Of a stretch of 64,000 bases of DNA, positions 12,674-32,920 are shown piece by piece. The translations under genes and the position numbers were made by a program. Source of the DNA: Candidatus Latescibacterota bacterium (GTDB taxonomy: Bacteria > Latescibacterota > UBA2968 > GCA-2709665); the NCBI GenBank assembly GCA_965219995.1, contig CBDCOX010000002.1, positions 64,001 through 128,000 on the forward strand, given 5' to 3'. Position 1 is the stretch's first letter; the number at the start of each line of letters is the position of its first letter. The notes beneath the pieces were generated by a model, which saw only the letters and a list, made by a program, of their open reading frames with translations, was not told the DNA's origin and ran no database searches.

Positions 12674-13026
12674 CACCCTGAATATACCTTGCGCGACCGA
12701 GGGGTGAAAGTACAAAAGGACTGTGATTGGAGTGATTAAAACCTGATTAGCGTGATTAAGGCAAAGGCGGGTACAGGTCAAAAGCAACAAACATGGATGG
12801 ACAGGATGGACAGGATAAAACCAAACGAGAAGGTAAACCGGGTGGAAGCTGAGCGGCCAGGCTGCGCGGAACCGGTCATGAACGCCGACCCGGATTTCCG
12901 GACGTCCCAGCTGACCTGGTTTCTCGTACCGCCTTTTCCGGTCTTACGCCTTTATCCTGCCTGTCCTGTGCATCCATGTTAAATCGTGTGTTGCTTCTTG
13001 GGTTGTCGGGTGTCGTCATTTCCGGT

Positions 13027-13410
13027 CTACCAGATGGTCTGTGCGTAATACGCCTGGATGATCGCATCGGAGGTGACGATGGGGCAGGCGTTCAGGCCGG
13101 CGGTGGCGACGATGGTCCGATCGGCGGGGTCCCGATGGTCCCAGTCCAGTTCCAGATTTCTGATCCATGTCCGGGCGCAGACGGGGAGGATTTCGACGCG
13201 GTCGACTTGTTCCAGTCTGTCCGTGAATTCCCGGATGGAAACCGGTATAACCAGTTGTTCTTTCTTGACCTTGATACCGATTTCCCATATCGATATCGCA
13301 CTGAGGGCAATCCTGTCGGCGTCCGCAATCGCCTGTGCGGCAGCATTCGACAGCCGATCTCGATCGAGCGTCCAGAATATGAGGGAGGAGGTGTCCAGGA
13401 GGACCATCAC
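13027..13410 (-). CDS. vapC: VapC-family PIN domain toxin
   Basis: LLDTS, SAISIWEIGIK, HRDPADRTIVATA and IVTSD PIN motifs; GTG start overlaps the antitoxin stop (GTGA). Confidence 0.92.
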   Translation of the reverse strand: MMVLLDTSSLIFWTLDRDRLSNAAAQAIADADRIALSAISIWEIGIKVKKEQLVIPVSIREFTDRLEQVDRVEILPVCARTWIRNLELDWDHRDPADRTIVATAGLNACPIVTSDAIIQAYYAQTIW

Positions 13411-13637
13411 GATTCCGTCCATTCATCTGTGGTCGGAAGATTGATGTCGTCGCGATAGATGACCTGGCCCGAAAGCGCGCCGAACACGTCGTCGACCGTC
13501 TTCTTTCTCGAAATCGGCTGAATGCGCAACACCGGGCGCCTGCGATCCGTGACGATCAACGACTCGCCGGATTCCTCAAGCTCGCGAAAGATGCGCAGCA
13601 TGTGCGCTTTCAGTTTGCTCTTGGAGATGGAATTCAT
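13407..13637 (-). CDS. Phd/YefM-family antitoxin
   Basis: ISKSKLKAHMLRIFRELEESGESLIVTDRRRPVLRIQP Phd fold; directly upstream of vapC; AAGGAG RBS. Confidence 0.9.
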   Translation of the reverse strand: MNSISKSKLKAHMLRIFRELEESGESLIVTDRRRPVLRIQPISRKKTVDDVFGALSGQVIYRDDINLPTTDEWTES

Positions 13638-13659
13638 ACGATCTCCTTACGAAATAAAA

Positions 13660-13713
13660 ATGACTATAGTCATCACTATGGTCATAATATACATAAACAA
13701 GAAATACTGTCAA
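13660..13713 (-). promoter_or_regulatory. TA operon sigma70 promoter with palindromic operator
   Basis: TTGACA at 13713-13708 with an AT-rich -10 region (TATATT/TATTAT). Perfect 14-bp palindrome ATGACTATAGTCAT (13660-13673) plus an imperfect overlapping copy ATCACTATGGTCAT. Confidence 0.7.
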
Positions 13714-14252
13714 ATGAAACGACAGGGTATGACTAACGGGGACAAATCGAGAATTTCACATGGGCGGACAGGATGAACAGGATATAGATCACAAACCTGC
13801 AATATCCAGTCATCCCTGCGTACGATTCATTCCGGTCTTGAAGGATTTTCCTCCTCACCACCTGAGCCCATTACGTCCCACCTGAACCGTGTTCTCGCAC
13901 CGCCTTTTTTAATTATACGCCTTTATCCTGCCTGTCCTGTGCATCCGTGTTCCACTGCATCAATTCTCGATGGTCATTCGCTACCAACCATTACCGACAT
14001 GGATGGACAGGATAAACAGGATAACATCCAAACCGGAAACACCAGGTCAAGCCAGCAAATCAATTAATCCTGCCGTTGCAGATCCTGATTCAGGCTTCAC
14101 GAGATCGATGTCGCACACTGCGTCAACGTGCTTCTAATGTACTACGGAGTCTCGTCATCAGCCGCAGACCGCACCCTGTTGTGTCCCGTCTGTATGTTTG
14201 TGATGTGATCTCCTGTTTTGCCTTTATCCTGTCCATCCTGTGCATCCATGTT

Positions 14253-14864
14253 TCATTCTTCTTTGCCAGGATCTTCGCCGGTTTTTTCCCATGCCTTCGT
14301 GAATGTCTCCGGCTCAACGCCGAGCGCATCGGCCACGCGGTTAATGTAGTTGAAGAAGCCGATGATCTGGATGGCGTCGTGGATGGACCGATCGTCGAAA
14401 CCGTGCTCGCGCAGCCGCTCGATATCCGCGGCGGTAGAGTCTCTCGGATCCAGGCTGAGCTTCTTCGCGAAGGCGCATAGCGCGCGGTCGGCGGGGGAGA
14501 GGGGGGCCCGGCGCCAGTCGGCGGCAACCAGATGCACCAGCCGGTCGGCCTCGCTGTCATCTTCAACGCCGAAATCCGCGGCGACCTCGGCACGGAGGTC
14601 GTGGGCGTGGGCGCGTATTCAGTAGACGCAACGGTTTGCGGCCGAAACGACCACGGCGAGCATCTCTCGCTGCGCACGGCTGAGCGGGGAGGGGCCGTGC
14701 ATCAACGCGCCGTAGAAATCCAGCGACGCCTTCATCGCGCGGGGGTTCTGGCTCATCACGGAAACAATGCCCCAGACGCGCCCCTCCCGCCCCATCGCGG
14801 CGTCATACTGCTGCTTCAACAAACCCGTCGCGGCCTCCGGAGGAATGACGTCGATATAGGGCAT
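14253..14864 (-). CDS. AhpD/CMD-like peroxidase-related selenoprotein (CxxU), 203 aa with in-frame UGA
   Basis: ORFs 14619-14864 and 14253-14537 are in one frame, separated only by TGA at 14621-14619: REMLAVVVSAANRCVY-U-IRAHAHDL. This matches the AhpD CxYC..H motif. The C-terminal half (LREHGFDD, IIGFFNYINRVADALG) completes the fold. Confidence 0.88.
14582..14601 (-). promoter_or_regulatory. Putative bacterial SECIS hairpin
   Basis: Minus strand CGACCTC-CGTGCC-GAGGTCG; 7-bp stem starting 18 nt 3' of the UGA, with G at loop position 2. Confidence 0.7.
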
Positions 14865-15216
14865 CGCGGCCTCCTTCGCAACATGGATCAATGCGGAAAC
14901 GGCAAAACCAAAAAGGCAAGGTAAATTCAACAACACAAACCAACAAACATGGATGGACAGGATGGGCAGGATAAAAACCGTGAGAAACTAAGAAAATCGC
15001 TAAAGACACGAAAACCGCAAAGAACAGGTCAAATCAAAACTGCCAAACATGGATGGACAGGATGAGCAGGATAAAAACCGCGAAAAAAGATAAAATCAGT
15101 CAAACCTGCGGTAAGGCACACTGGCTGTTCAAGTTGCCATCTCAAACTTTATTTGTCTTTGAGTATTCTGAGGATTGTCTTATGGAAAATACGGAAAAAT
15201 AAGGAGTTGGCACGTA

Positions 15217-15246
15217 TAAAAATGGCCCAGGGATTTGCCTGGGCCG
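15217..15246 (-). terminator. Intrinsic terminator downstream of the yjzC-like gene
   Basis: GGCCCAGG/CCTGGGCC stem (15224-15245) followed on the minus strand by ATTTTTAT. Confidence 0.65.
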
Positions 15247-15277
15247 TTTAAGATCGCACATCTAAAGATCAATGCAA

Positions 15278-15478
15278 TCAACGTTTTCCATGCCCACTTT
15301 GATTCTTAGTACGGTCCACAAGTCGAAATTTCCAACCAGGACGTTGTGTTGGTGGCAAAGGTCTATCTATAATAGCAGTTATCTCAATTGCATTAGGGAC
15401 CTTACCACCAAGTGGTCCCACTTCCTGATATTGACCCGAAGCCTGAGCCAGCTCACCCGATCTTTGCAACCTAGGCAT
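15278..15478 (-). CDS. YjzC-like small protein
   Basis: SGELAQASGQYQEVGPLGGKV...RPLPPTQRPGWKF matches the YjzC pattern (SGQY.EVGP.GG...LPPT); GGAGG RBS. Confidence 0.75.
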   Translation of the reverse strand: MPRLQRSGELAQASGQYQEVGPLGGKVPNAIEITAIIDRPLPPTQRPGWKFRLVDRTKNQSGHGKR

Positions 15479-15794
15479 TGGAAAGTCCTCCAAATAAATT
15501 TGTCGTAAACAAAAACGGCATATTTATTAATGAGTTACGGGGGAATGGATATTGGGTTCTACGGGCTCACCTCCTTAACCCTTCCATTTGACCGTATCCT
15601 TGATTAGTGGTTCTTGCGCGGCTGCCGTCAACAGCCGCGCATCTTCTTACTTTAAAATAGCATTGTGTTCGCCAGAAGACAAACATTTAAATGAAAATTT
15701 ATCACAAAAACCCCCTCTTTTCGTACCATGTCAATGGCCTCAGAAGGTAGAGCTTCTGAGGCCATATCGTGAAGAGACTCAAAATTCAAATTCA

Positions 15795-15989
15795 TTATCC
15801 GTATGTTACCGAATCGGAGCCCTTCTCTTTACTAACTTTACCGGATACAAAGGGTACGGGTATCGTTTTGGGTCCCCGACTGCCATCATCACGACCATAG
15901 GGTTGTGTATTTTGTTCTTTGACAGATCGCTCCCAACCCTCATTACCAGGCGCAGGCGCAGGTGTCGGTGCTTCCTTTGGATGATTCAT
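15795..15989 (-). CDS. Small hydrophilic hypothetical peptide (64 aa)
   Basis: Starts 20 nt after the Ntn-hydrolase stop with an AAGGGG RBS; followed by a strong hairpin ATGGCCTCAGAAG/CTTCTGAGGCCAT (15734-15765). Confidence 0.45.
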   Translation of the reverse strand: MNHPKEAPTPAPAPGNEGWERSVKEQNTQPYGRDDGSRGPKTIPVPFVSGKVSKEKGSDSVTYG

Positions 15990-16009
15990 TTTGGCCCCTT
16001 TCTGACTTA

Positions 16010-16822
16010 CTATGGCAGCACACTACTGGTGACTCGTTTTTGTCGAACTATACGTAAGCCCTCCTTTTGAGTAATTACTGCAATATCCACTGGACCCCCG
16101 ACACTTCGAACCCCAGAAGTAAAATGCATTAGCTTAGTAGTAGTTTCAATAAGAAATACTGAAAGATCGATACAATCTTGAAGAGGCAAAAAACCATAAG
16201 GTATAGAGACAGATAACGGATTCAAAATAGTTTGTTGTATATTTTGACATTGTTCATCTGTTAATGATAATAAGTCTCGTAACTGTTGCAATACTTGATC
16301 ACCCACGCCACCTAAAAGGTGAAAAGCATGAGTTGTGACTCCACCCCAACATAAACCAAAATCACCGTCCGCTGCGCGTATTTCTATGGGCTCTATATTT
16401 TCATTTGGAACATGTGTTAAATAGACTCGACCATGTCCTTCATTTTCATTATAACCGCCCACTAAAAAATAAATATGGCCGGGTGGGTTATTAGGTGCCG
16501 CTGAGGCCCAAGCATTATTAAAGAAATCTCGAAGCAATAAGGCAAAATTCAACACTGATAATCGTGGTTGAGTTCTAATATAGTTTTCAAATTCTGGTAA
16601 ATAACTATGTACCGTTCTTGGCGAAAGTGAATTTATGGCTCCCGCTCCATATGTCATGGCCCCAATATGACTTTGCTTCTTAGTGTATAGTAGCTTCATT
16701 GCATTATCATACGTAGAAGCAAATACCAAATCCGTATTAGGTTCTTGTGATGTAAATGTTGTACGACTATCTACCGCTAAGACAACACCTTCTGAAGCCT
16801 TAAAAGCAATTGCAAAGGACAT
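16010..16822 (-). CDS. Proteasome-subunit-like Ntn hydrolase (hypothetical peptidase)
   Basis: N-terminus M-SFAIAFKASEGVVLAVDSRTT, KL at the proteasome Lys33-like position, FLVGGY, C-terminal SVGGPVDIAVIT; AT-rich; GAGG RBS. Confidence 0.7.
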   Translation of the reverse strand: MSFAIAFKASEGVVLAVDSRTTFTSQEPNTDLVFASTYDNAMKLLYTKKQSHIGAMTYGAGAINSLSPRTVHSYLPEFENYIRTQPRLSVLNFALLLRDFFNNAWASAAPNNPPGHIYFLVGGYNENEGHGRVYLTHVPNENIEPIEIRAADGDFGLCWGGVTTHAFHLLGGVGDQVLQQLRDLLSLTDEQCQNIQQTILNPLSVSIPYGFLPLQDCIDLSVFLIETTTKLMHFTSGVRSVGGPVDIAVITQKEGLRIVRQKRVTSSVLP

Positions 16823-16968
16823 CTCAAATACCTCTTAAATTTACCGTATCTTACAAAATAAAGCAAGTTTAAAACCACGCTTGATACGTTTAGTTATTAT
16901 CACTAATAGTTAAGTAGCAACCCTCAAAATATGAACTTCAAGATAAAATGTCAATAATTTAAACGACT

Positions 16969-17426
16969 TTAAACACACCCTCCCAAAACCCCCTCCTTCC
17001 GCCGATTGTACCGATAGCACGCCTCGGCCAGATACAGTTCCATCCACTTTAAGCTGTAGTGATGTTGAGTGCAGTAATACGCCCGTTTCACGGTTTCCCA
17101 GAACAACGCCAGCCGGCGCAACGGAGTCTCGCTGGGCCGATGATCGAAGTACCAATCCAACATCTTGAAGAAATTATGTCGAGTCGTGTGCAATCGCGTC
17201 CCCCGCTTAATCATCTCCTTCAAAGCCCCATAGACTGCTAGACTTACTCGTACCGATTCGGACCGTTACCCTTCCCCCGTGCTCGATCGCACCTACCAGC
17301 ATTGTCTTCTTCGTCCAGTATGCCCGGACTGATTTACTGTATCGCGGCTTTCCGCCCAGGTAAGTTTCACTGGCCTCGACTATACCGGTCAGCAATTCCC
17401 GACCTGCGACCCGTTGCATCTGTTGC
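16969..17426 (-). pseudogene. IS1595-family transposase relic (frameshifted, 5' truncated by IS21)
   Basis: LTGIVEASETYLGGKPR (canonical EADETY, with the catalytic D lost) and KTMLVGAIEHGGRV in one frame; HHYSLKWMELYLAEACYRYNRR in another. Confidence 0.8.
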
Positions 17427-17559
17427 TGTTAATGATCGCCCATATGCGGCCAATGCGGGATCGCCCTAATGGGGCCACCTGGGATGCGATATAGGTTTCG
17501 GACTATCCGGCAACGGTTCTACCTTCTGATTGTCTCCCCGACAGTCAGGAGGGAAGGAC

Positions 17560-19107
17560 ATGGCCAACCGGAGGTTCGAGATGTATCAGATTCGCCAGGT
17601 ATTGACGCGTATGCGGTTGGGCGATTCGGATCGTGCGATCGCCCGTTCAGGGTTGATGGGTCGGCAGAAGGCCGGCGCGCTTCGTGACGTGGCAGGCCGT
17701 GAGGGATGGCTGGACGCTTCCAACGTGTTGCCCGATGATGCCACGCTGGTGCAGGTGGTTCAGGTTCCAACCTCGCGACCTCAGTCGGCCTCGTCGGTTT
17801 TGCCCTACCAGGACAAGGTGACAGCCTGGTGGCGTGAGGGTATCCGGGGTACCGTCATCCACCAGGCGTTGGTGGACACCTACGGCTATGCCGGCTCGTA
17901 TTCTTCCATCCGTCGTTTTCTCCAGCAGCTCAAAGACGCTCATCCCGACGTCACCACCGTGTTGGACTTCGATCCGGGCGACGTGGCGCAGGTGGACTTC
18001 GGGCGGGGTCCCACGATACAGGACGTCTTCACCCACCAGACCATCGCGACGTGGATCTTCGTGATGGTGCTGGCCTGGTCTCGCCACCAGTATGCCGAGA
18101 TCGTGCCGGACCAGAAGGTCGAGACGTGGCTTTCCTGCCACAGAAGCGCCTTCGAGTTCTTCGGCGGAGTCCCGGCACGCGTGGTGATCGACAACCCCAA
18201 AAACGCCATCACCAGGGCCTGCTACCACGATCCGGAGGTGCAGCGCGCCTACGGCGAGTGCGCCGAAGGCTATGGCTTCACCATCTCCCCGTGCCCCGTG
18301 CGAGACCCGAAGAAGAAGGGGCGCGTGGAGGCTGCCGTGAAGTATGTCAAGCGCAGCTTTGTTCCCCTGCGCCAGTTCCGTGACATCAGAGATGCCAACC
18401 GGCAGTTGCAGGACTGGATCCTGGGGGTGGCCGGTAACCGCATTCACGGCACTACCCACGAACGACCCCTGACACGCTTTGCACAGACCGAGCGCGAGTT
18501 CCTCAAGCCGTTACCCGCCATTCCACCTGAGCAGGCGGCCTGGGCCAAGGTGAAGGTTCACGGCGACTGCCACGTCCAGTTCGAGAAGTGTCGATACTCC
18601 GTGCCCTATGCCCTGGTGCGCCAACAGCTCTGGTTGCGGGCCAGCCCAAAAACCGTGAGGATCTACCAGAACCACAACATGGTGGCCGTTCACCTCCGTA
18701 AAAACACACCTGGTGCACGCGCGACCGTTACCGAACATCTGCCGCCAGAGGCGCGCGCTTTCCTGATGCGCGATCCACAATGGTGCCTCAAACAGGCACA
18801 GCGTATCGGTCCTTCCTGCCACCACCTCATCAAGACCCTCTTCTCCGATCGCGTGCTGGACAACCTCCGCGCTGCGCAGGGCATCATCCGACTTTCACAA
18901 CGCTACGGCGCAAGGCGCCTCGAGGCCGCCTGCGACCGCGCCCTGGCCTTTGACAACCCCCGCTACCGGAGTGTCAAAAGCATCCTCGAAAAAGGTCTGG
19001 ACCAATGCAAGCATCCAAATGAGACGTCCACAGCCCCACACACCCTCGCGTCAGCCTATACGGGACAGGGACGTTTTTGTCGCGATGCCACAACCCTCTT
19101 CAGCTAA
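17560..19107 (+). CDS. istA: IS21 transposase IstA
   Basis: PGDVAQVDFG, FFGGVPARVVIDNPK, PKKKGRVEAAVKY, RIHGTT, YSVPY. Confidence 0.95.
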   Translation: MANRRFEMYQIRQVLTRMRLGDSDRAIARSGLMGRQKAGALRDVAGREGWLDASNVLPDDATLVQVVQVPTSRPQSASSVLPYQDKVTAWWREGIRGTVIHQALVDTYGYAGSYSSIRRFLQQLKDAHPDVTTVLDFDPGDVAQVDFGRGPTIQDVFTHQTIATWIFVMVLAWSRHQYAEIVPDQKVETWLSCHRSAFEFFGGVPARVVIDNPKNAITRACYHDPEVQRAYGECAEGYGFTISPCPVRDPKKKGRVEAAVKYVKRSFVPLRQFRDIRDANRQLQDWILGVAGNRIHGTTHERPLTRFAQTEREFLKPLPAIPPEQAAWAKVKVHGDCHVQFEKCRYSVPYALVRQQLWLRASPKTVRIYQNHNMVAVHLRKNTPGARATVTEHLPPEARAFLMRDPQWCLKQAQRIGPSCHHLIKTLFSDRVLDNLRAAQGIIRLSQRYGARRLEAACDRALAFDNPRYRSVKSILEKGLDQCKHPNETSTAPHTLASAYTGQGRFCRDATTLFS

Positions 19108-19127
19108 AAAAACGGGAGAACAACAAC

Positions 19128-19907
19128 ATGAACCCGATGCCCGAACTTGCCCCCATGCTCAAAAGACTGCGCCTGTCCGGCATCCTCGAGACACTGCCTG
19201 CCAGAAATCAGGAAGCCATCGACAACAAACTCGCTTACAGCGAGTTCCTCGCCCTGCTTGTCCAGGACGAGGTCGCACGCAGAGAACACAAAAAGTTCAA
19301 CCTGCGCCTGCGACGCGCGGGCTTCCGCGGCGAGAAAACCCTCGAGGGCTTCGACTTCGCCTTCAACCCCGCCATCAATCAGGCCTTCATCAAGGACCTG
19401 GCCACCTGTGCCTTCATCAAGGAAAAGGTCGCAATACTGATTGCAGGACCCTGCGGCACGGGCAAAAGCCACATCGCACAAGCCCTGGGACACCTCGCCG
19501 TCAGAGCCGGCTACGACACCCTGTTCACCACACAAACCAAGCTGTTGGGACAACTCCACGCCGCACGGGCGACAGGCACCTTCGAGCGGCGCTTCCACAA
19601 TGTTGTCAAAACACCGCTGCTCATCATCGATGACTTCGGCCTCAAACCCATGACGCCGCCACACGACGAGGACTTCCACGACCTCATCTCTGAACGCTAT
19701 GAACGGGCGGCTACCATCGTCACCTCAAACCTCGACTTCTCGGAATGGGTTCACGCCTTCCCGAATCGACTCCTCGGCGCCGCCACCCTCGACCGTCTCA
19801 GGCACGGCGCCTATCGCGTCATCCTCGACGGCGAAAGCTTCCGCGCACCTAAACCCTTACCACAATCACAAAAAAAACACCTTGGAAAGGAGGCCCAAGA
19901 GCACTAA
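19128..19907 (+). CDS. istB: IS21 helper ATPase IstB
   Basis: KTLEGFDF, GPCGTGKSH Walker A, LLIIDDFG, TIVTSN, ATLDRLRH. Confidence 0.95.
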   Translation: MNPMPELAPMLKRLRLSGILETLPARNQEAIDNKLAYSEFLALLVQDEVARREHKKFNLRLRRAGFRGEKTLEGFDFAFNPAINQAFIKDLATCAFIKEKVAILIAGPCGTGKSHIAQALGHLAVRAGYDTLFTTQTKLLGQLHAARATGTFERRFHNVVKTPLLIIDDFGLKPMTPPHDEDFHDLISERYERAATIVTSNLDFSEWVHAFPNRLLGAATLDRLRHGAYRVILDGESFRAPKPLPQSQKKHLGKEAQEH

Positions 19908-20011
19908 TTATATGCCCCTTCCGAAACACTAAAATCGACACTTCCAGGTGGCTCCATTACGCCGATCATGGGTGGCCCCATTAGGGCGATCCGTGACAAG
20001 GAGTAAAGGCC

Positions 20012-23948: not shown

Positions 23949-24071
23949 TGCACTAACTCCTTTCTTCCTCAACCCGCAGACAGATGTGGATTTCGGCTGC
24001 GTCTGTCGCTGCCGACCATCTGGCCGTTCCTGCGTGCGAATCTCGAAACAGGTCCAGATTGGAATCTGCAG

Positions 24072-24208: not shown

Positions 24209-24221
24209 CTGTGCCAGCGAT

Positions 24222-25083: not shown

Positions 25084-25172
25084 AGGCCTGTTACTACTTT
25101 CACCCGCCTGCCAATCCGCTGCCGGACAATTCCCCGCTAATCTTTCTTCACTCAGCCGATTCTCCGATACGT

Positions 25173-27788
25173 TTAGCACAGGCTTGTTTGAAGGAGACTA
25201 GTCGGTTTTCTTTCCGTCTCCTGCCCATTCTGTCTATCCCCGTCGCCCCACACCCGCCGTATCGCCGCCTGAATCCTCTTCTCCATTCGCTTTATTAACT
25301 TCTTGTTCGCATCCAAGATGGCTTGTTCGCCCTTGATTTCGGTGACGATTTCTTCTTGTGTCTCGGCAGCGGGTAGGGGAATTCTGTAGCTTTCCAGGAC
25401 GGTTTTGGGAACCCGTTGTAGTCCTCCAGTTCCGGTCATCTGTGGTGTTGCCCATTTTCGAAATTTGGGCGTAGCGACGCTGAGGTATATCCATTCAGGG
25501 ATAACTTCCCGTTCCGGTCTCAGCACGTAAAACTCGCTCGAACCAAACCCGATTCCGTTGCTCAAGCCGTTGGCGATTCCCGCTTTGCCATTCTCAAAAC
25601 AGGGAGTCACCTTTGCAATAAGTACGTCGTCGTCCCTGAAGTAAGTATAGCTGGTGCCAACTTCATTTAAGCGCTTACAATGTCTCGGTGAAAAATACAT
25701 ACTGTTTGAGCCCAGATCAGCCATCGGCACAAAAGAAACGAATCTTGTGCCGTCGAATGCATTCAATTCCGATTTTCGAGGATTTAGATTGCAGACTTCC
25801 CCGATTTCCACCATCGGCCAATCGGGGTCGATGGGAATATGCGGTCGGTAGTTGTCGATGACTGCGCGCGCACCGTCGATCACCCGCTGATACCCCTTGA
25901 TCTCCGCCACAATCTCCCGCTGCACATCCAGAGGCGGTAGGGGAAAACTGAAGCTCGAATACTGTCTCGCGTTAATATTGGTAAGCGTGCCTGTCTTCGA
26001 GTTACTGTCTATCCACTCGCGCCACGTCTCTGACTTGGTTACGTGATAAACAAATTCAGGAACGGCTTTAGTCGGATCGATACGGAAACGAATCAAGTAA
26101 CCAGCGTATTGATAATTTCCTTGCTGATTTCCGTGCAGGTAGGTACGTCCAACGGAGCCCGAGCGTGCGATAAGTAGGTCACCAGGTTTCAAGAAGAGGT
26201 CTGGCTCGATTAGTGAAGGCGAAACTGAATCGCTTGAACGGAGTTCTCCGTCGTCTGTAATGTCAGTTATCCGCACATATCGTACTTTGTTATCGAATGT
26301 AACTTTGCGTGCCCCGGAACCGTACGTCGGTTTGCCCAAGATAATTTCGCCAAGGTTTACCCAGGCGTATTTTGTATCGTTGGTTCTGTATTCCCTATAC
26401 CTCTCCCCACTCAGGTTGTACTCCCCACCAGCCGCGATTTTTGACTTTGGGACGATGAGTGGCACCCCTTGCTGAATGAGTTGCTCCAGGATTGACTGAT
26501 CGGCGGCGGGGTGTGGTTCGCCTTTATCCTGCCCATCCTGTCCATCCATGTTCCCAACATTGCCAATGTACTCCTTCATGGCCTCCAAGGTCCGCGGGAG
26601 GTCGTTCAGATCGATCGGTCTGCGCTGGGCGCCGAGGTCGAAGCCGTCATTTTCGACTTTGAAGAAGGCGATCTGATCGGTCCGTTTCGCCAGGGATTTG
26701 TCGAGGATCAGGATTGACGTCTTGACGCCGGAGTAGGGATTGAAGACGCCCGCGGGGAGGGAGACGACGGCGACCAGATAGTCCTCGACCAGCATCTTGC
26801 GCAGTTGTTTGTGGGCGTTTTGGCTCTGGAAGATGATGCCCTCGGGGACGATGATCCCGGCGCGGCCGGATGGCGTAAGATGTTCGGCCATGTAGTCCAC
26901 GAACAGGACTTCGCTGCGTTTGGATTTCACGGAAAAGCGGTTGTGCGGGCGGATGCCGCCCTTCGGCGACATGAACGGCGGATTGGCCAGAATGACGTCG
27001 GCGTATTCGTTCCAGCGGTCCTCGCTGGTGAGGGTGTCGTATTCGACAATGTGCGGTTTCTGAAAGCCGTGCAGGTACATGTTTACCAATGACAGTCGGA
27101 CCATATCCGGTGAGATATCGTAGCCCTTGAAGTTTGCGGTGAGTTTTTCCCGTTCGTCAGGTGTGAGCGTACTGTTTCCGTCGTCGTCGGTATTGGCCTC
27201 GACAATGTGCTTGTACGAGGAAATGAGAAACCCGGCAGTGCCGCAGGCCGGGTCCAGAATGGTTTCGTTTTTCTTCGGGTCGATCACCGCGACGATGAAG
27301 TCGATGATGTGGCGCGGGGTGCGGAACTGACCGGCGTCGCCCTGCGAACCCAGGACCGAGAGCAGGTACTCGAAGGCATCCCCGAGGCGCTCGCTGTGGT
27401 CGTACGTGAACTCGTCGATGACCTTCAAAAAGGCGCGGAGCGTTTCCGGGTCGCGATAGGGGAGGTAGGCGTTGTTGAAGATGTCCCTGAAAAGCGGCGG
27501 TATGCCGGGATTCTCGGGCATTCGGTCAATGGCTTCGGCGTAGACATTGAGCATCTCATGTCCGCCCAGGCCGGAACGCATCAGCTTCGGCCAGCCGAAC
27601 CGGGCAAATTCACCGGCGAAGAATTTCCGCGTGCCGCCCAGCTCCTCGCTCTTGGCGTCCATGTCGTCCATGAACTTGTAGATCAACGCGATCGTGATCT
27701 GCTCGACCTGGCTCTTGGGATCCGGCACCTTCCCGACCAAAATATCGCGGGCGGTATCTATACGGCGTTTCGTTTCAGCGTCTAACAT
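25173..27788 (-). CDS. Type I RM N6-adenine methyltransferase fused to specificity subunit (HsdM-HsdS)
   Basis: GQFRTPRHI, DPACGTAGFL and ANPPF MTase motifs, then two TRDs each followed by PLPPLDVQREIV / PLPAAETQEEIV conserved helices. Confidence 0.92.
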   Translation of the reverse strand: MLDAETKRRIDTARDILVGKVPDPKSQVEQITIALIYKFMDDMDAKSEELGGTRKFFAGEFARFGWPKLMRSGLGGHEMLNVYAEAIDRMPENPGIPPLFRDIFNNAYLPYRDPETLRAFLKVIDEFTYDHSERLGDAFEYLLSVLGSQGDAGQFRTPRHIIDFIVAVIDPKKNETILDPACGTAGFLISSYKHIVEANTDDDGNSTLTPDEREKLTANFKGYDISPDMVRLSLVNMYLHGFQKPHIVEYDTLTSEDRWNEYADVILANPPFMSPKGGIRPHNRFSVKSKRSEVLFVDYMAEHLTPSGRAGIIVPEGIIFQSQNAHKQLRKMLVEDYLVAVVSLPAGVFNPYSGVKTSILILDKSLAKRTDQIAFFKVENDGFDLGAQRRPIDLNDLPRTLEAMKEYIGNVGNMDGQDGQDKGEPHPAADQSILEQLIQQGVPLIVPKSKIAAGGEYNLSGERYREYRTNDTKYAWVNLGEIILGKPTYGSGARKVTFDNKVRYVRITDITDDGELRSSDSVSPSLIEPDLFLKPGDLLIARSGSVGRTYLHGNQQGNYQYAGYLIRFRIDPTKAVPEFVYHVTKSETWREWIDSNSKTGTLTNINARQYSSFSFPLPPLDVQREIVAEIKGYQRVIDGARAVIDNYRPHIPIDPDWPMVEIGEVCNLNPRKSELNAFDGTRFVSFVPMADLGSNSMYFSPRHCKRLNEVGTSYTYFRDDDVLIAKVTPCFENGKAGIANGLSNGIGFGSSEFYVLRPEREVIPEWIYLSVATPKFRKWATPQMTGTGGLQRVPKTVLESYRIPLPAAETQEEIVTEIKGEQAILDANKKLIKRMEKRIQAAIRRVWGDGDRQNGQETERKPTSLLQTSLC

Positions 27789-28063
27789 CGAAGAACCTCA
27801 GACTTACATGGATGGACAGGATGAACAGGATAAATTCAAGAACCCAAAACATCGGATTCAGCCAACGCATCAACGATTCCAGCCGTTGCAGTGGTATATA
27901 TCATCCAGAGCTTGTTGCTGAAAACTGCCTTGTAATTGACGGTTCGAGAATGCAGAACTTCGTTGAGAAAGAGTCTTGTTTCCTTGTGATTTTCAATGTA
28001 TATTTCGTTTGTCTGGACGTTTTATTAGCTCTTGCAAATTGACTAAAATGTCTTATTGCAGGC

Positions 28064-28094
28064 CCCACGGGTTTCGGCTCGTGGGATTTTTTTT
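28064..28094 (+). terminator. Plus-strand intrinsic terminator-like hairpin
   Basis: CCCACGGGT-TTCG-GCTCGTGGG followed by ATTTTTTTT. Confidence 0.6.
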
Positions 28095-28236
28095 GTATTT
28101 GAATGAATCGTAGGAAGAAACGAGTTGAGGTTTATAGCTTATATGCCGGTTTTCGGGGTGGTTTTCCTTTGTGTTTTTGTGCCTTTTGTGGCCATTTTGT
28201 TTTTTTCTTGCCTCTGATCCTGTGCATCCATGTTTC

Positions 28237-30765
28237 CTAAGCAGCAAACTGATTTAGCGGGACGTAGTCCTTGACGTATTCGGGGACGAGTTTGCGGTAT
28301 TTCTCCGGTACGGCGCCAAGGTCCTTCATTGAGAGAACGGGGTTGGTGGCCAGGCCGGTGTAGTCCCGGTTTTCGATGATGTGACGTACCTGGTCGCTGG
28401 TGACGTACGCTTTGAAGTAGTTCTTGATCGCGGGGATGGACTCGACCTGTTCGGGGGTATAGTCGGCCACGAACTTCCCGAATTCCTCTTCCAGCATCTC
28501 ATCTTTGGATTTAAACCGCGGAATCAGCCCAAACACCTTTTCCAGGATCTCCCTGAGCGTGATGCGACGGTCCACGGCTGCGGCCTTGCGCAGCTTTTCG
28601 AGCGTGTAATACTCCTCGGGCCGGTCGAAGACTTCCCGGTTGACGTAGTCGATGACCCGGTCCCACTGCCCCGCCTCCACGGCCTGCGCGATGACGTCAT
28701 CCTTCCGAACAGCATCCTCGAATTTCTCGAAGAACATCCGATCGATCCTCATCCCTTCCGCTCCGACGGCCTCGACCTTGATGGTCGACAGGATGTCCCG
28801 ACCCAGGTACTCGTAGGCACCAGCGTCGGCGACGGGAGTATTCGGATCCTCTTTTTCGATAGCAACCTTGTAGGAAGGCAGTCCCAACACTTCGTCGTAG
28901 TTGAACTCGGTTTCGAAGTATTCGCAGTTGGCGAAGAAGTCGAACAGCTTGAACTCGGTCTTATCCGGCTCGTCTACGCGTTCCGCGATGGCCGGATTCT
29001 GCAACTGTTCGAGGAAGTTATGCTTCCTTGTACCTCGCCCCTTGATCTGGATGAAGTCGGTGGGCGAGAAGATCGGGCGAAAGAGACCGAGATTAAGGAT
29101 GTCGGTACAATCATATCCCGTTGTCATCATGCCGACCGTCACACAAACCCGCGCTTTGCTCGTCAGATACTCAGGGAGGAAGTTCCCGGATCCGAGCAGG
29201 TTATTGTTGCTGAAATTAACGGTGAACCGCTGGGCATCCGAAATCTGCGATGTGACCTGTACGGCGAAGTCCGACTTGTATCTGTCCGGAAACATGACGT
29301 GAGCCATCAGGTTGAGGATTTGAGTCAGTTTTGCAGCGTGTTTTTGACTGACGGCGAAGACGATGGACTTGCCGATTTCGCCGCTGACGGGGTCACGAAG
29401 CGCGTTTTCGAGGAACGTCTTGCAGAAGAGCTGGTTGGTCGCGTCGGAATAGAATCGCTTCTCGAACTCACGCTTTTTGTAAGCCTCTTCCTGTTCTTCA
29501 CCCTCATCGTCCGTAAATGATACGACGAATCCCTGTTCGGAGAGCAACTTTGTTGTCACTTTCGTTCGCGCGTCAACGACCGTCGGGTTGATCAGATAGC
29601 CGTCCTTCACGCCGTCCAGCAGGGAGTATTTGAATGTGGGCTGCCCGCTTTCGCACCCAAATGTACGGTAGGTGTCCAGGAGCAAACGGCGTTCTGCTTC
29701 GCGCGGGTCCCGCGTGGTCGGGCTGGTCCCGTCGAATCCTCTCAGATAGTCCCGGGGAGTTGCGGTCAGGCCCAGTTTGTACCCGACGAAGTAGTCGAAT
29801 ACGGACCGGGCGTTGCCACCGATGGACCGGTGGGCTTCGTCGGAGATGACGAGGTCGAAGTCGGTGGGCGAAAACAGCGATTGGTACTTATTGTTGAACA
29901 GCAGCGACTGGACCGTGGTGACGACGATCTCCGCGGAACGCCAGTCGTCCCGCCGTTCCTTGTAGATCACCGTTTGGAAGTCAGCCGAAAGCAGGGCGGT
30001 GAAGACCTTCCTCGCCTGTTCCTCGAGTTCCAGCCGGTCGACGAGAAACAGCACACGAGAGGCATTGCCGGAGCGCAGAAAGAGCTTGATCACAGCCGCG
30101 GACACCAGGGTCTTGCCGGTTCCGGTGGCCATTTCGAACAGGAACCGGTCTTTCCCGTCCTTCACGATCCTCTGAAGCGTATGAACGGCCCGGAGTTGGT
30201 AGGGGCGGAGGAAATTCAATCCGTTGGACTTGATAAAGGCGGGGCGTTCGGCTTCGTTCGTCCACGCCGCTTCCGAGGCATAATTCGGCCGCTGGGTGAG
30301 TACGATGTAATCCTCACTGACGGACTCATCGACCAGGCGCTGAGGGTTGGGCTGGACTTTATTGTAGTTGGTTACGGAGTCCGGCGTCGGGAAGGAAGTG
30401 ATGACGTACGGATTGCCTCTCTCGAGGTCCCAGAAGTAATGCAGATTTCCGTTCGACAGGATGACGAAGCGGCAGTTCTGCGAGCGGGCGTATTTTCGTG
30501 CCTGTTCTTTGCCCACCAGCGGGTTTTTGTCCTCCGACTTGGCCTCCAGGACGATCAGCGGGAAGCCTTTTTCGTCAAGGAGGAGAAAGTCTACGCGACC
30601 TGTCGCGTTCTCAAAGTCGTCGCCCAGTGCGTCCAGGTCGGCCTTCTTCAGCTTGACGCTCGCCTCGACGCGAATGTTGGCAGGCTTGCCTTCATTGTCG
30701 AAGAACCGCCACCCCGCCGCCTCGAGCAGTTTGTTGATCTTGATCCTCGCCGCTGCTTCGTTCAT
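28237..30765 (-). CDS. hsdR: Type I restriction endonuclease subunit R (EcoAI/EcoEI-like)
   Basis: N-terminal D..LEAK nuclease motif, LRPYQ, MATGTGKT, DEAHRS, GLTATP, TTGYD, QIKGRGTR. Confidence 0.93.
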   Translation of the reverse strand: MNEAAARIKINKLLEAAGWRFFDNEGKPANIRVEASVKLKKADLDALGDDFENATGRVDFLLLDEKGFPLIVLEAKSEDKNPLVGKEQARKYARSQNCRFVILSNGNLHYFWDLERGNPYVITSFPTPDSVTNYNKVQPNPQRLVDESVSEDYIVLTQRPNYASEAAWTNEAERPAFIKSNGLNFLRPYQLRAVHTLQRIVKDGKDRFLFEMATGTGKTLVSAAVIKLFLRSGNASRVLFLVDRLELEEQARKVFTALLSADFQTVIYKERRDDWRSAEIVVTTVQSLLFNNKYQSLFSPTDFDLVISDEAHRSIGGNARSVFDYFVGYKLGLTATPRDYLRGFDGTSPTTRDPREAERRLLLDTYRTFGCESGQPTFKYSLLDGVKDGYLINPTVVDARTKVTTKLLSEQGFVVSFTDDEGEEQEEAYKKREFEKRFYSDATNQLFCKTFLENALRDPVSGEIGKSIVFAVSQKHAAKLTQILNLMAHVMFPDRYKSDFAVQVTSQISDAQRFTVNFSNNNLLGSGNFLPEYLTSKARVCVTVGMMTTGYDCTDILNLGLFRPIFSPTDFIQIKGRGTRKHNFLEQLQNPAIAERVDEPDKTEFKLFDFFANCEYFETEFNYDEVLGLPSYKVAIEKEDPNTPVADAGAYEYLGRDILSTIKVEAVGAEGMRIDRMFFEKFEDAVRKDDVIAQAVEAGQWDRVIDYVNREVFDRPEEYYTLEKLRKAAAVDRRITLREILEKVFGLIPRFKSKDEMLEEEFGKFVADYTPEQVESIPAIKNYFKAYVTSDQVRHIIENRDYTGLATNPVLSMKDLGAVPEKYRKLVPEYVKDYVPLNQFAA

Positions 30766-31150
30766 TCTGATATCTTTTCAGAAATTAACCAACATGGATG
30801 GACAGGATGGACAGGATAAAAACCGCAAGAAACTACGAAAACAACAAAAGCCACAAAAGGCACAAACTGGGCAGATCAAAACATCCAACATGGATGGGCA
30901 GGATGGGCAGGATAAAACCACACAAAACAACGAAAACACCGAGAGCCACAAAATGCACAAAGGGCACAAACAGGGGAAAACCAGGACCACTAAAGAATGT
31001 ACTGGAAGAACTGTATGAGTTGATTGTGTCTCTTCCTCAGCAGCGACTCCCGATCTGATCTGCGTGATCTTGGCCGTTGAACCTCTTTATTGTTCGCCTG
31101 CTCTTATCCGGTCTGTCCTGCTATGTCCATGGTCCCCTGTTTCAAGCGCT

Positions 31151-31369
31151 TTACTCGAACAGCGTTCGTGGTAGCCCCGATTGCCGAATGATTGCCATCA
31201 GTGTCCCTTTTCGTAGTTCCTTGTGGTCAGGAACCGGTACAGTGATCGTACTCTCGGACGTGATCCTCTGCATGACGACATGGCTGCTCCTGCGCCGGAC
31301 TTCGGTAAATCCGTGGTCCGCGAGTATTTCACAGGTTTCGCGTCCCGACAATACCCGAAGTCTAACCAA
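31151..31369 (-). CDS. hicA: HicA-family toxin
   Basis: LSGRETCEILADHGFTEVRRRSSHVVM...VPVPDHKELRKGTLMAIIRQSGL; TTG start with GGAGG RBS inside the hicB end. Confidence 0.9.
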   Translation of the reverse strand: MVRLRVLSGRETCEILADHGFTEVRRRSSHVVMQRITSESTITVPVPDHKELRKGTLMAIIRQSGLPRTLFE

Positions 31370-31583
31370 TGGCAACCTCCACCTGGGTTACGTACACTTC
31401 CTCGTGCAGGCGCTGCTGAATCTCAGTATCTGAGGCCGTTTCCAGGAACAACTCCAACGCCTCCTTCAGGTTTCCCCTTGCTTCAGAAACGGTTCCACCC
31501 TGACTCGCGATGTCCACTTCAGGGCACAGGGCAACGTATCCATCGCCTTCGCGTTCTATAATTGCAGTCAACTTTCTTGTCAT
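31362..31583 (-). CDS. hicB: HicB-family antitoxin (short form)
   Basis: TAIIEREGDGYVALCPEVDIASQGGTVSEARGNLKEALELFLE. Confidence 0.9.
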   Translation of the reverse strand: MTRKLTAIIEREGDGYVALCPEVDIASQGGTVSEARGNLKEALELFLETASDTEIQQRLHEEVYVTQVEVAIG

Positions 31584-31887
31584 CGCAAGCTCCCGTCGTG
31601 AGGATTTCCTTGTTTGACGCTTTCCTTCCTCCTCCGCTTTTGCAGTTGCCATTCATCACAGCCGTTTCCCGCCGTTATGATGTTGTCTGATTTTCGTTCT
31701 TCGACTTGGTTCTTCCCGTTTTTTAGCTTTCTGTTTTTATCCTGCTGATCCGGTGTATCCATGTTGTCCGGTTTTGATCTTTCGGTTTGGTTCTTCCCCG
31801 CTGTTGTCCCATGTTTTGGTTTTCTGCCTTTATCCTGTCCATCCTGTATATCCATGTTCCCCTGTATCAATCCTCGATGGTCCTTCG

Positions 31888-32843: not shown

Positions 32844-32920
32844 CTGTATAACCTCCTTGAAATGATTGACTTAAGCACTACGTGGAAATGTGCTCTTATG
32901 GTCCTGAATCGTTATGTGGG

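What the first reader, a model, noticed from the sequence alone, without database searches (positions are those of the whole stretch)
12790..31858. Cassette-like array: TA, redox and restriction genes individually bracketed by inverted 30-bp repeats, with no integrase in view
Seen: 16 copies of AACATGGATGGACAGGATGGACAGGATAAAA (9-nt period) occur only in this 19 kb. Spacers between minus-strand genes carry a (+) arm then a (-) arm 160-430 bp later: 12790/12951, 13758/13922, 13997/14223, 27806/28217, 30791+30887/31104. Read on the coding strand, an arm starts right after a stop (TGA-AACATGGATG after the selenoprotein, TAG-GAAACATGGATG after hsdR). The inverted arm ends shortly before the next start (17 nt before hsdM-S, 25 nt before hsdR). 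The cargo is vapBC, the Sec peroxidase, hsdMS, hsdR and hicBA, all co-oriented. Established: integron arrays have this gene/hairpin/gene layout and are enriched in TA and defence genes. These sites lack the attC RYYYAAC...GTTRRRY ends and no intI is present. From memory, similar 9-mer repeats flank GxxExxY nuclease-fold genes in other genomes, without a known mechanism. Inference: an undescribed gene capture/shuffling platform using ssDNA hairpin sites and a trans-encoded recombinase or nuclease.
Basis: partly seen in the sequence, partly recalled or inferred. Interest (0 to 1): 0.85.

Follow-up and report, generated by a model that had tools for sequence, protein, structure and literature searches.

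The report
Nuclease-linked hairpin repeats in defence island
The 30-base inverted repeats are not gene-capture sites but copies of a genome-wide hairpin repeat that in related bacteria brackets a small GxxExxY nuclease gene, and they have piled up in a fast-changing defence-gene hotspot.

Summary
The repeats are real: 14 solid and 2 degenerate copies lie in window 12790-31858, and their positions next to stops and starts are as described.

They are not confined to this locus. The genome, an uncultured Latescibacterota MAG, holds about 109 copies. Of these, 13 lie in the locus (expected 0.38), and all 14 congeners carry the motif.

The motif ATG-GAT-GGA-CAG-GAT-GGA-CAG-GAT-AAA is the start codon plus the first codons (MDxQDxQD) of one clade of GxxExxY (Pfam PDDEXK_3) nuclease genes. 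These genes sit between a sense arm and an inverted arm in three sister genomes and in many unrelated metagenome contigs.

In the window, the (+)...(-) spacers are gene-less versions of that cassette. The TA, selenoprotein, restriction and hicAB genes lie between these units, not inside them. Their order is the same across 12 congeners.

The NUDIX-lptE interval is a genus-wide hypervariable defence island of 3-28 kb.

The integron-like capture model is not supported. A REPIN/RAYT-like partnership between repeat and nuclease is plausible but unproven.

This scan noted GxxExxY genes flanked by inverted repeats on other DNA before. I found no paper describing it.

The parts
12790..12980 (-). Gene-less hairpin unit 1, between vapC and NUDIX: L-type arm 12790-12820 (+) and R-type arm 12951-12980 (-).
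   Evidence: Folds as a long hairpin in ssDNA, z = -4.8. Absent from G001 and present in G010 at 94% identity.
13758..13951 (-). Gene-less hairpin unit 2: arm 13758-13786 (+, 4 mismatches) and arm 13922-13951 (-, 5 mismatches).
13952..13996 (.). 45-nt relic between two units. It copies the junction between the lptE 3' end and its arm.
   Evidence: family D6: 13907-13989 against 31814-31896, 81% identity. The same piece is repeated twice in G010.
13997..14252 (-). Gene-less hairpin unit 3: arm 13997-14025 (+) and arm 14222-14252 (-). The latter directly abuts the TGA stop of the selenoprotein gene.
   Evidence: Fold z = -4.7. Positions 13934-14234 are missing from a related-strain contig whose joint lies in the two (-) arms.
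14946..15076 (+). Two tandem L-type arms (14946-14976 and 15046-15076, 100-nt period) upstream of the selenoprotein gene. They form the left border of the 16-kb island.
   Evidence: families D3, D5. Arms are present at the same place in the 8 congeners aligned, one reduced to a single truncated arm. Homology with G001 ends at 14976.
26522..26552 (-). R-type arm inside the hsdM-S reading frame, in frame; it encodes MDGQDGQDK.
   Evidence: The peptide is conserved in all 4 aligned HsdM-S proteins.
27805..28234 (-). Gene-less unit between hsdR and hsdM-S: arm 27805-27835 (+) and a degenerate arm at about 28203-28234 (-). An intact or truncated GxxExxY gene sits at this position in G008 and G012.
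   Evidence: G008 and G012 cassettes.
30791..31135 (-). Two tandem L-type arms (30791-30821 and 30887-30917) plus a degenerate inverted arm at about 31104-31135 after the hicA stop. They form the right border of the 16-kb island.
   Evidence: (D5: 30779-30866 is 81% identical to 14934-15021).
31736..31858 (-). Two tandem sense arms (31828-31858 and 31736-31765) downstream of the lptE stop.
13016..13637 (-). Toxin-antitoxin pair (PIN/VapC-like toxin, Phd/YefM-like antitoxin), lying between units.
   Evidence: weak Phd hit. Orthologues in G014 and G002 hit PIN. Found in 11 of 12 congeners, not in G012, always first after NUDIX.
14253..14864 (-). CMD/AhpD-like selenoprotein gene with a CVY-U motif.
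   Evidence: The in-frame TGA is conserved in 13 of 13 genomes. SelA is present in the genome.
15077..25172 (.). Strain-specific island cargo: unknown ORFs, IS21 (17530-19907), DUF6527 + E1-like ThiF/DUF6791 + Multi_ubiq (22095-24080), and HTH + M78 (24147-25083).
   Evidence: Apart from 74-87% matches to the HTH/M78 pair and a few short patches, G001, G012, G008 and G013 carry different cargo here; the other eight congeners lack it.
25173..30765 (-). Type I restriction-modification genes: fused hsdM-S 25173-27788 and hsdR 28237-30765.
   Evidence: Shared with G001, G012, G008 and G013 at 83-95% identity.
31151..31583 (-). hicA (31151-31375) and hicB (31362-31583).

Best explanation
The arms are the terminal repeats of one family of 'GxxExxY cassettes', together with their gene-less derivatives.

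The full cassette is a roughly 410-nt PD-(D/E)XK nuclease gene of Pfam family PDDEXK_3. Its ATG and first eight codons (MDxQDxQD) are the 9-nt-periodic motif itself. An inverted copy of the motif follows the gene, so the unit can close into a long hairpin in ssDNA or RNA.

In this genome the gene of this clade has been lost. What remains is about 109 gene-less copies:
- Single 'L-type' heads with varied tails, scattered through intergenic DNA. Their head end lies close to a stop or start codon.
- Paired L...R units, which are almost confined to the NUDIX-lptE interval.

That interval is a genus-wide hotspot where defence and TA genes are gained and lost. In sister genomes it is also where the motif-bearing nuclease gene lives. 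The TA, selenoprotein, restriction and hicAB genes are resident island genes separated by these units. They are not captured cassettes.

Shown: the identity of the arms, their distribution, their link to the nuclease gene across phyla, and the collinear gene order.

Inferred:
- The units spread or are maintained through the nuclease, in the manner of REPIN/RAYT.
- Recombination between arms drives local duplications and deletions.
- The hairpin hides the nuclease start codon.
For: Distribution in this genome:
- 109 copies at up to 5 mismatches. 95 are intergenic by my crude gene caller, against 16% intergenic DNA. 13 lie in the locus against 0.38 expected (P = 4e-16). The maximum in any other 19-kb stretch is 5.
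- The head side lies within 60 nt of a gene boundary in 63 of 95 copies; the tail side does so in 5 of 95.
- All four gene-orientation contexts occur: 39, 34, 16 and 9 copies.

Distribution in relatives:
- The motif is in 14 of 14 congeners. It was found in 2 of the 16 genomes searched from other genera, with 1-2 copies each.
- All 13 syntenic loci carry 4-21 arms.

Link to GxxExxY genes:
- The PDDEXK_3 genes of G010, G008 and G012 lie in this same interval. They have a sense arm at the ATG and an inverted arm downstream. Their products begin MDRQDRQDK, MDKQDGQDK and MDAQDKQDH.
- Of 28 fetched homologues from many lineages, 20 begin MDxQDxQD. Some end in YPVHPVHPC, which is the inverted arm translated.
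- In 80 metagenome loci encoding relatives, a strict 9-mer-period CAGGA pattern occurs in sense at the gene start in 25, in antisense after the gene in 25, and in both places in 15. A reversed control pattern occurs in 0.
- Other GxxExxY subfamilies in the genus carry their own flanking repeat types, sense upstream and antisense downstream.

Structure:
- Units fold as hairpins, with z = -4.8 and -4.7.
- In the G010 cassette RNA, the arm holding the AUG pairs with the downstream arm, z = -2.6.

Gene order:
- TA, selenoprotein gene, island and hicAB are collinear wherever present in 12 congeners.
Against: - G000 has the most copies (85 at up to 2 mismatches) but no GxxExxY gene of this clade. 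Its single PDDEXK_3 gene is flanked by another repeat type. The three genomes that do carry the clade's gene have 46, 11 and 9 copies.
- No clean empty site or target duplication was found for an array unit or for a gene-carrying cassette.
- Several arms sit at orthologous positions in species only 80-88% identical, and the motif is better kept than its surroundings. That fits a host function or gene conversion as well as mobility.
- Arm pairs show no compensatory change: 6.58 mismatches within pairs against 6.65 between pairs.
- The best evidence of transposition points to a DDE transposase rather than the nuclease. Six of 14 copies of a 305-nt subfamily have an exact 4-nt duplication at NTAG-like sites. 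An IS5-like element in the genome also has YTAR duplications.
- No activity of any GxxExxY protein is known to me or was found in print.
Confidence: 0.6

Rival explanations
1. Host-function reading. The arms are conserved cis-elements of the host or of the island. As RNA hairpins between genes of a long minus-strand transcript they would insulate, stabilise or process the message and mask start codons. Alternatively, they are binding sites for a host DNA-binding protein. The GxxExxY gene would then be just one gene regulated this way.
For: - Arms sit at orthologous positions upstream of the selenoprotein gene in the 9 genomes aligned (one reduced to a single truncated arm), and the motif is kept while the tails diverge.
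- Of 7 arms from other species whose flanks map to G000, 4 have an arm at the matching place. I compared coordinates by eye.
- L and R arms keep different consensus sequences, so the constraint is on sequence and not only on pairing.
- Heads lie 17-41 nt from starts and stops.
- The arm is tolerated in frame inside hsdM-S in 4 of 4 species.
- An RNA-library contig of a relative covers 14832-14979. This is weak, because DNA can be present in such libraries.
Against: - Copies occur in both orientations and in convergent, divergent and co-directional spacers without bias.
- Copy number ranges from 5 to 85 among congeners.
- No CsrA, the obvious reader of CAGGAUG repeats, is encoded in this genome, which is 98.6% complete.
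- No Rfam family matches.
- The same motif travels with GxxExxY genes in unrelated lineages. That is hard to explain by a host-specific factor.
Confidence: 0.2
2. First reader's model. The array is an integron-like platform in which TA, redox and restriction genes are individual cassettes, captured and shuffled at hairpin sites by a recombinase or nuclease encoded elsewhere.
For: - Genes in the array are co-oriented and most spacers carry a hairpin unit.
- Content between NUDIX and lptE differs in every congener.
- The 16-kb island is flanked by direct tandem arms (D5).
- Some breakpoints lie in arms.
- The selenoprotein module is duplicated within the array in G013, and partly in G008.
Against: - Shared modules keep one order in all 12 comparisons, and their divergence tracks that of the flanks.
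- None of the shared modules was found at another place in the 13 loci, apart from the in-array duplications.
- 96 of 109 arms lie outside the locus, mostly as single heads.
- The only genes found inside a (+)...(-) unit are GxxExxY genes.
- There is no tyrosine recombinase within 2 Mb and no Y1/HUH gene in the genome.
- Arm ends do not share attC-like cores, read.
Confidence: 0.07
3. Ordinary MITE reading. The repeats are non-autonomous derivatives of a DDE insertion sequence, moved by an IS5-like transposase. The GxxExxY genes are passengers or favoured landing sites.
For: - A 305-nt subfamily (14 copies aligned) has TGAATAATTCAC inverted termini. Its flanking 4-nt duplications are exact in 6 of 14 copies and one mismatch off in about 5 more.
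- 25 of 109 heads have NTAR-CC within 45 to 28 nt upstream (23 of them at -31 to -28), against 0 of 109 controls.
- Five copies of a 1.56-kb IS are 95-98% identical and carry CTAA/TTAA/TTAG duplications.
- Targets containing TAA or TAG would explain why heads abut stop codons.
Against: - The IS termini (CCTCAATGYGAAA) resemble the MITE termini only weakly.
- The array units lack these termini and show no duplications.
- The motif is conserved with GxxExxY genes across phyla, where this IS is not known to be present.
Confidence: 0.1

Closest known systems
REP/REPIN elements and their RAYT (REP-associated tyrosine transposase) genes. Source: Bertels & Rainey 2011, PMC3116915 and PMC3337134; I read the outlines and abstracts only.
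   Same: - Short repeats dispersed in extragenic space, with inverted doublets that fold as hairpins.
- A low-copy gene flanked by inverted copies of its own repeat type.
- Different gene subfamilies carry different repeat types.
- Clusters and tandem arrangements occur.
   Different: - The associated gene is a PD-(D/E)XK fold protein (PDDEXK_3), not a Y1 HUH transposase. No Y1_Tnp gene exists in this genome.
- The repeat is built from 9-nt tandem sub-repeats and includes the gene's start codon.
- The genome with the most copies lacks the cognate gene.
- No activity has been shown.
MITEs derived from IS5-family elements, and Correia-type elements. The comparison is recalled general knowledge; no paper was read.
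   Same: - Non-coding units of 60-300 nt, intergenic and in both orientations.
- One subfamily has inverted termini and 4-bp duplications at TAG/TAA-containing targets.
   Different: - Most copies share only the internal 9-mer head.
- Paired units in the array have no detectable duplications.
- The motif is linked to a nuclease gene across phyla.
Integron attC/cassette arrays.
   Same: - Co-oriented genes separated by hairpin-forming sites.
- Enrichment in TA and defence genes.
- Strain-variable content.
   Different: - No intI.
- No attC core sites.
- Gene order is conserved.
- The sites are spread over the whole chromosome.
- The hairpin unit lies between genes and is not attached to each gene.
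Defence-island integration hotspots between conserved core genes. The concept is recalled general knowledge.
   Same: A fixed pair of core flanks (PALP/NUDIX on one side and lptE/DUF1844/DsbA on the other) holds different defence cargo in each genome: type I RM, CBASS-like SMODS+HORMA+AAA, AAA_15/21+DUF3226 and ubiquitin-like systems.
   Different: The borders and internal spacers are filled with one hairpin repeat family. No integrase is present.

Membership tests
Integron | An adjacent intI tyrosine recombinase with attI and Pc. | tested here: not met
   No Phage_integrase hit among the 22 ORFs of the interval and its flanks. The only two in the genome are at 2.16 and 3.16 Mb, while the locus is at 0.08-0.10 Mb.
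Integron | attC sites with conserved R''/R' core sequences at cassette boundaries. | tested here: not met
   Read from the sequence: arms end in CCATGTT followed by different bases (AAATCG, CCACTG, TCATTC) with no shared GTTRRRY. No dedicated attC model was run.
Integron | Cassettes present, absent and re-ordered independently among close relatives. | tested here: not met
   Shared modules are collinear in 12 of 12 comparisons. Only large islands differ.
REPIN/RAYT system | A RAYT (Y1 HUH transposase) gene flanked by the repeats. | tested here: not met
   No PF01797 match in a genome that is 98.6% complete; the control genomes ring.
REPIN/RAYT system | Inverted repeat doublets that form hairpins and are dispersed in extragenic space. 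| tested here: met
   Fold z = -4.8 and -4.7. 95 of 109 copies are intergenic. There are 24 doublets in the 13 loci. Outside the hotspot, however, most copies are single heads.
DDE-type MITE | Terminal inverted repeats plus target-site duplication. | tested here: inconclusive
   Met for the 305-nt subfamily, with 6 of 14 exact 4-nt duplications. Not seen for the units of the array.
GxxExxY (PDDEXK_3) repeat-flanked cassette. This grouping comes from this scan's notes, not from a published family. | A PDDEXK_3 gene between a sense and an inverted copy of a short periodic repeat. | tested here: met
   Met in sister genomes G010, G008 and G012 for this motif, and in 15 of 80 metagenome loci by a strict pattern. 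In the window itself the units are gene-less: tblastn found no remnant.
CsrA-binding sponge or leader (CAGGAUG repeats) | A CsrA protein encoded by the organism. | tested here: not met
   No PF02599 match in the genome; the control genomes ring.

The most novel reading that the evidence does not exclude
The CAGGAT-period arms are the recognition or hairpin sites of their own GxxExxY nuclease. Gene and repeats together form a REPIN/RAYT-like partnership built on a PD-(D/E)XK fold. The partnership is spread across phyla, and its motif is so constrained that it doubles as the gene's start codon and first codons.

At the NUDIX-lptE hotspot, the accumulated units serve as portable recombination sites that drive the turnover of defence islands.
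Probability: 0.25. Interest if true: 0.8.

Novelty: new variant of a known kind. Interest (0 to 1): 0.55.

Why it matters
GxxExxY/PDDEXK_3 is a very large orphan family. My search returned more than 7,800 relatives among the 8,000 candidates scored. The 2012 survey of the superfamily lists its function as unknown.

Three observations give the family a concrete, testable role:
- One clade carries a DNA motif that is both its start codon and its flanking inverted repeat.
- That motif is conserved across distant lineages.
- The motif has multiplied to about a hundred gene-less copies in one genome.

The role would be a nuclease that works on, or is controlled by, its own hairpin repeats.

The finding also explains a striking, integron-like picture in a sponge-associated Latescibacterota genome without invoking a new capture machine. 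It marks one conserved interval as the defence-island hotspot of the genus.

Tried and rejected
- **CsrA sponge idea.** The motif resembles CsrB-type CAGGAUG repeats (recalled), but the genome has no csrA.
- **Coding small proteins.** ORFs opened by the motif's ATG have a median of 41 codons, and 20 of 109 reach 60. The +1 control frame has a median of 32 and 15 of 109. There is no sign of a conserved product except the hsdM-S case.
- **Remnants of the nuclease gene inside the window's units.** tblastn with 24 PDDEXK_3 proteins found only the one gene at 3.64 Mb.
- **Clean empty sites.**
  - G001 lacks unit 12778-13014 but has 32 unrelated bases in its place.
  - G000 lacks the 1.3-kb cassette of G004 locus L129 but has 31 unrelated bases there.
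  - Neither case shows a target duplication.
- **Compensatory change between paired arms.** None was found.
- **Rfam.** Only one sub-threshold microRNA hit, E = 0.097.
- **Public reads.**
  - Holders are sponge and marine metagenomes, and all data were contigs.
  - Most 'joints' have 20-28 nt sides and simply reflect the repeat occurring in other contexts.
  - RNA-library contigs were 90-95% alike and few.
  - No circles or empty-site joints could be read from this.
  - The parts of the island without cover say nothing.
- **Copy number against presence of the cognate gene.** No relation was seen.
- **Pfam coverage.** Only 150 of the 291 ORFs listed for the sister loci were scanned. The loci of G004, G011, G003, G006, G009 and G013, and most of the second half of the G008 locus (L016, first two ORFs only), were not scanned.
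- **Literature.** One search failed on a term with brackets. I replaced it with accession terms.
Full report
**Observation**

The 31-mer from the finding occurs 9 times at up to 3 mismatches in the window, all between 12790 and 31858, with none expected by chance. The repeat finder lists eight (+) and eight (-) copies there; three of the (-) copies are weak. With a 29-mer at up to 6 mismatches I count 14.

The positional claims hold on the minus strand:
- The selenoprotein stop is followed at once by the arm.
- The hsdR stop reads TAG-GAAACATGGATG.
- The inverted arm ends 17 nt before the hsdM-S ATG and 25 nt before the hsdR ATG.

Pfam confirms NUDIX, a Phd-like antitoxin, a CMD/AhpD-like protein with an in-frame TGA, a fused N6_Mtase plus Methylase_S, HsdR and HicA. 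It also shows an IS21 pair at 17530-19907, a DUF6527 / E1-like / multi-ubiquitin trio, and an HTH plus M78 pair inside the interval.

**The motif is genome-wide**

The window is C2:64001-128000 of a 5.43-Mb assembly. Record titles of the nearest relatives name Candidatus Latescibacterota MAGs.

- The chromosome holds 109 copies at up to 5 mismatches.
- Thirteen lie in the 19-kb locus against 0.38 expected (P = 4e-16). No other 19-kb stretch holds more than 5.
- By a crude gene caller of my own, 95 of 109 copies are intergenic, although only 16% of the DNA is.
- All four arrangements of neighbouring genes occur: 39, 34, 16 and 9 copies.
- The copies are polar. The ACATGG 'head' lies within 60 nt of a gene boundary, stop or start, in 63 of 95. 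The A-rich 'tail' side does so in 5 of 95.
- Alignment of the copies with their flanks shows a modular element. About 35 nt to the left of the motif are shared, followed by tails of up to 200 nt that fall into subfamilies.
- The motif is present in all 14 congeners at 5-46 copies (up to 2 mismatches), against 85 in G000. It is almost absent from the other genera searched.

**One subfamily is an ordinary MITE**

Fourteen copies of a 305-nt subfamily share near-palindromic termini (TGAATAATTCAC). They are flanked by 4-nt direct repeats such as ATAG, TTAG, CTAG and TGAA. The repeat is exact in 6 of 14 copies and one mismatch off in about five more.

Across all 109 heads, NTAR-CC lies 28-45 nt upstream of the motif in 25 (23 of them within 28-31 nt), against 0 of 109 control stretches.

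The genome has five copies of a 1.56-kb IS that are 95-98% identical. They carry a DDE_Tnp_1 transposase and CTAA/TTAA/TTAG duplications. Targets that contain TAA or TAG would explain why so many heads abut stop codons. The IS and MITE termini are only weakly alike, however, so this link is an inference.

**The locus is a genus-wide hotspot**

The flanks (PALP and NUDIX on one side; lptE, DUF1844 and a DsbA-like gene on the other) are found in all 14 congeners. In the 12 where both lie on one contig, they are 3.2 to about 28 kb apart. I fetched those 12 loci.

- Every locus is packed with arms in both orientations: 4 to 21 each, including 21 in 12 kb of G010.
- Cargo differs between genomes: type I RM, SMODS + HORMA + AAA, AAA_15/21 with DUF3226, a group II intron, insertion sequences, a Schlafen-like gene and others (only 150 of 291 ORFs were scanned).
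- The shared modules are collinear wherever they are present: TA, then a second hicB-like piece, then the selenoprotein gene, then the variable island, then hicAB, then lptE. Their identities (76-93%) track those of the flanks at 85-93%. This is not shuffling.
- Homology blocks end at gene boundaries or in arms. Every spacer here contains arms, so that coincidence has little power.

Specific cases:
- Homology with G001 stops at 14976, the end of an arm.
- The 16-kb island of G000 lies between two pairs of tandem direct arms that are 81% alike (D5).
- The short loci of G004, G006 and G011 go from the first pair straight to hicA.
- A related-strain contig joins 13933 to 14235, both inside (-) arms.
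- A 45-nt copy of the lptE 3' junction sits between two units at 13952-13996. It occurs twice more in G010.

Together these fit recombination between arms that duplicates and deletes segments.

**What the arms are**

In G010, G008 and G012 a PDDEXK_3 (GxxExxY) gene lies within this same interval. A (+) arm sits at its 5' end and an inverted arm lies downstream. So the gene sits inside a (+)...(-) unit, whereas TA, the selenoprotein gene and hsdR lie between units.

The reading frames start at the arm's own ATG: MDRQDRQDK, MDKQDGQDK and MDAQDKQDH. The motif ATG GAT GGA CAG GAT GGA CAG GAT AAA is therefore the start of the gene.

This is not local chance:
- A search returned more than 7,800 relatives among the 8,000 candidates scored, named 'GxxExxY protein' where a source names them.
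- Of 28 fetched, 20 begin MDxQDxQD and two more carry it after a short extension. Some run on into YPVHPVHPC, which is the inverted arm translated.
- In 80 metagenome loci encoding relatives of 46-71% identity, a strict pattern (GATnnnCAGGAnnnnCAGGA) is in sense at the gene start in 25, in antisense just after the gene in 25, and in both places in 15. A reversed control pattern is in none.
- In several of these loci the cassette follows an hsdR-like stop codon, as in G008 and G012 (read by eye). In G000 the matching spacer between hsdR and hsdM-S (27805-28234) is gene-less.
- Other GxxExxY subfamilies in the genus carry other short periodic repeats, sense upstream and antisense downstream. Examples are CACAAAGA units around G000's only PDDEXK_3 gene at 3,637,727-3,638,077, and ACTACGAAA/CGCGAAA units in another subfamily.

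**Finer structure**

- The 24 (+)...(-) pairs in the 13 loci have distinct arm types. The (+) 'L' arm consensus is TACATGGATGGACAGGATGAACAGGATAAA. The (-) 'R' arm consensus is AACATGGATGCACAGGATAGGCAGGATAAA.
- The R type is followed by GG, as at the gene starts.
- Paired arms are no more alike than unpaired ones: 6.58 against 6.65 mismatches. The constraint is therefore on sequence, not on pairing alone.
- R-type arms are almost confined to the hotspot. The dispersed copies are L-type single heads.
- Units fold into long hairpins as ssDNA, z = -4.8 and -4.7.
- In the G010 cassette RNA, the arm holding the AUG pairs with the downstream arm in both the MFE and the centroid structures, z = -2.6.

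**Mechanism**

Shown:
- The arms belong to the repeat family of one GxxExxY clade.
- The window's spacers are gene-less units of that family.
- The locus is a conserved variable island.
- The resident genes are collinear.

Inferred:
- The nuclease recognises or is regulated by its arms, as RAYTs are thought to act on REPINs (abstracts of PMC3116915 and PMC3337134).
- The hotspot's density reflects local duplication around the family's home site.
- Arm-arm recombination promotes island turnover.

Against a simple nuclease-driven picture:
- G000 has the most copies and no cognate gene.
- No clean empty site was found.
- Several arms are old and orthologous.
- The only transposition signature is of the DDE type.

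Also ruled out: there is no Y1/HUH gene, no nearby tyrosine recombinase, no CsrA and no Rfam match.

**Comparison and novelty**

The nearest described system is REPIN/RAYT. The layout is similar, but the defining transposase is absent and a PD-(D/E)XK protein stands in its place.

The integron definition fails on intI, on attC cores and on cassette independence.

Full-text searches gave no paper linking the family to flanking repeats:
- 'GxxExxY' found 3 papers, 2 of them listed. I read the passage in one.
- 'PDDEXK_3' found 1.
- 'PF13366 / TIGR04256 / DUF4143' found 5.
- The 2012 survey lists the function as unknown (passage only).

Subscription journals are not covered by these searches. This scan's own earlier notes report GxxExxY genes between inverted repeat arrays in more than 150 genomes, with the same REPIN/RAYT analogy. 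Those are unchecked AI notes, and I reached the link here independently.

**Verdict**

The integron-like reading is not. The underlying repeat-nuclease association is real and apparently undescribed. The new details here are that the motif is the gene's start codon, that it is conserved across phyla, and that it is concentrated in one defence hotspot.

Noticed in passing
window 25173-27788 (arm at 26522-26552): hsdM and hsdS are one 871-codon frame. The repeat arm lies in frame within it and encodes MDGQDGQDK, ahead of the C-terminal EYNLSGERY stretch. The peptide is conserved in the fused proteins of all 4 species aligned. G001 has an 11-residue insertion that splits it.
   Followed up: partly
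window 14253-14864 (-): CMD/AhpD-like gene with an in-frame TGA giving a C-V-Y-U motif. The TGA is conserved in 13 of 13 genomes of the genus, and a SelA gene is present. It is a likely selenoprotein. SECIS and selB were not examined.
   Followed up: partly
window 32918-33290: A second, unrelated dispersed repeat. It has inverted runs of GGTAGACG/GTGAGACG-type 8-mers around tandem units of about 110 nt, with dozens of copies in G000 and its congeners.
   Followed up: no
G000 C2:3637400-3638780 (outside the window; locus L111): The genome's only PDDEXK_3 gene is flanked by inverted CACAAAGA 8-mer runs. A tandem array of units of about 140 nt, each carrying the same run, follows it.
   Followed up: partly
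window 17530-19907 and 22095-25083: An IS21 pair (istA/istB). Next to it lies a DUF6527 + ThiF/DUF6791 + Multi_ubiq trio, which looks like a ubiquitin-like conjugation defence set (name recalled), and then an HTH + M78 (IrrE-like) pair.
   Followed up: no
G000 C2: 648501, 1604503, 2743473, 3502314, 4015537: Five copies of a 1.56-kb IS, 95-98% identical, with a 511-codon DDE_Tnp_1 frame, CCTCAATGYGAAA termini and 4-bp CTAA/TTAA/TTAG duplications. One copy is inserted beside a motif-bearing MITE.
   Followed up: partly
loci L136, L137, L147, L148 (metagenome contigs); G008 L105; G012 L125: The GxxExxY cassette with this motif sits directly after the stop codon of an hsdR-like gene in several unrelated contigs. 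This suggests the cassette and this type I RM operon travel together, or that the spot is a favoured target (read by eye).
   Followed up: no
G000 C2:3901903 (+): Here the motif opens a 10-codon frame (MDGQDEQDPR). Its TGA overlaps the ATG of a downstream gene that begins MSYDAIVIGGG, so it may act as a coupled leader.
   Followed up: no
G010 locus L011 1800-2760 and 8270-8700: Arms also form direct tandem arrays with a period of about 135 nt (three to four units). (+)...(-) units are repeated back to back, separated only by the 45-nt lptE-junction relic.
   Followed up: partly
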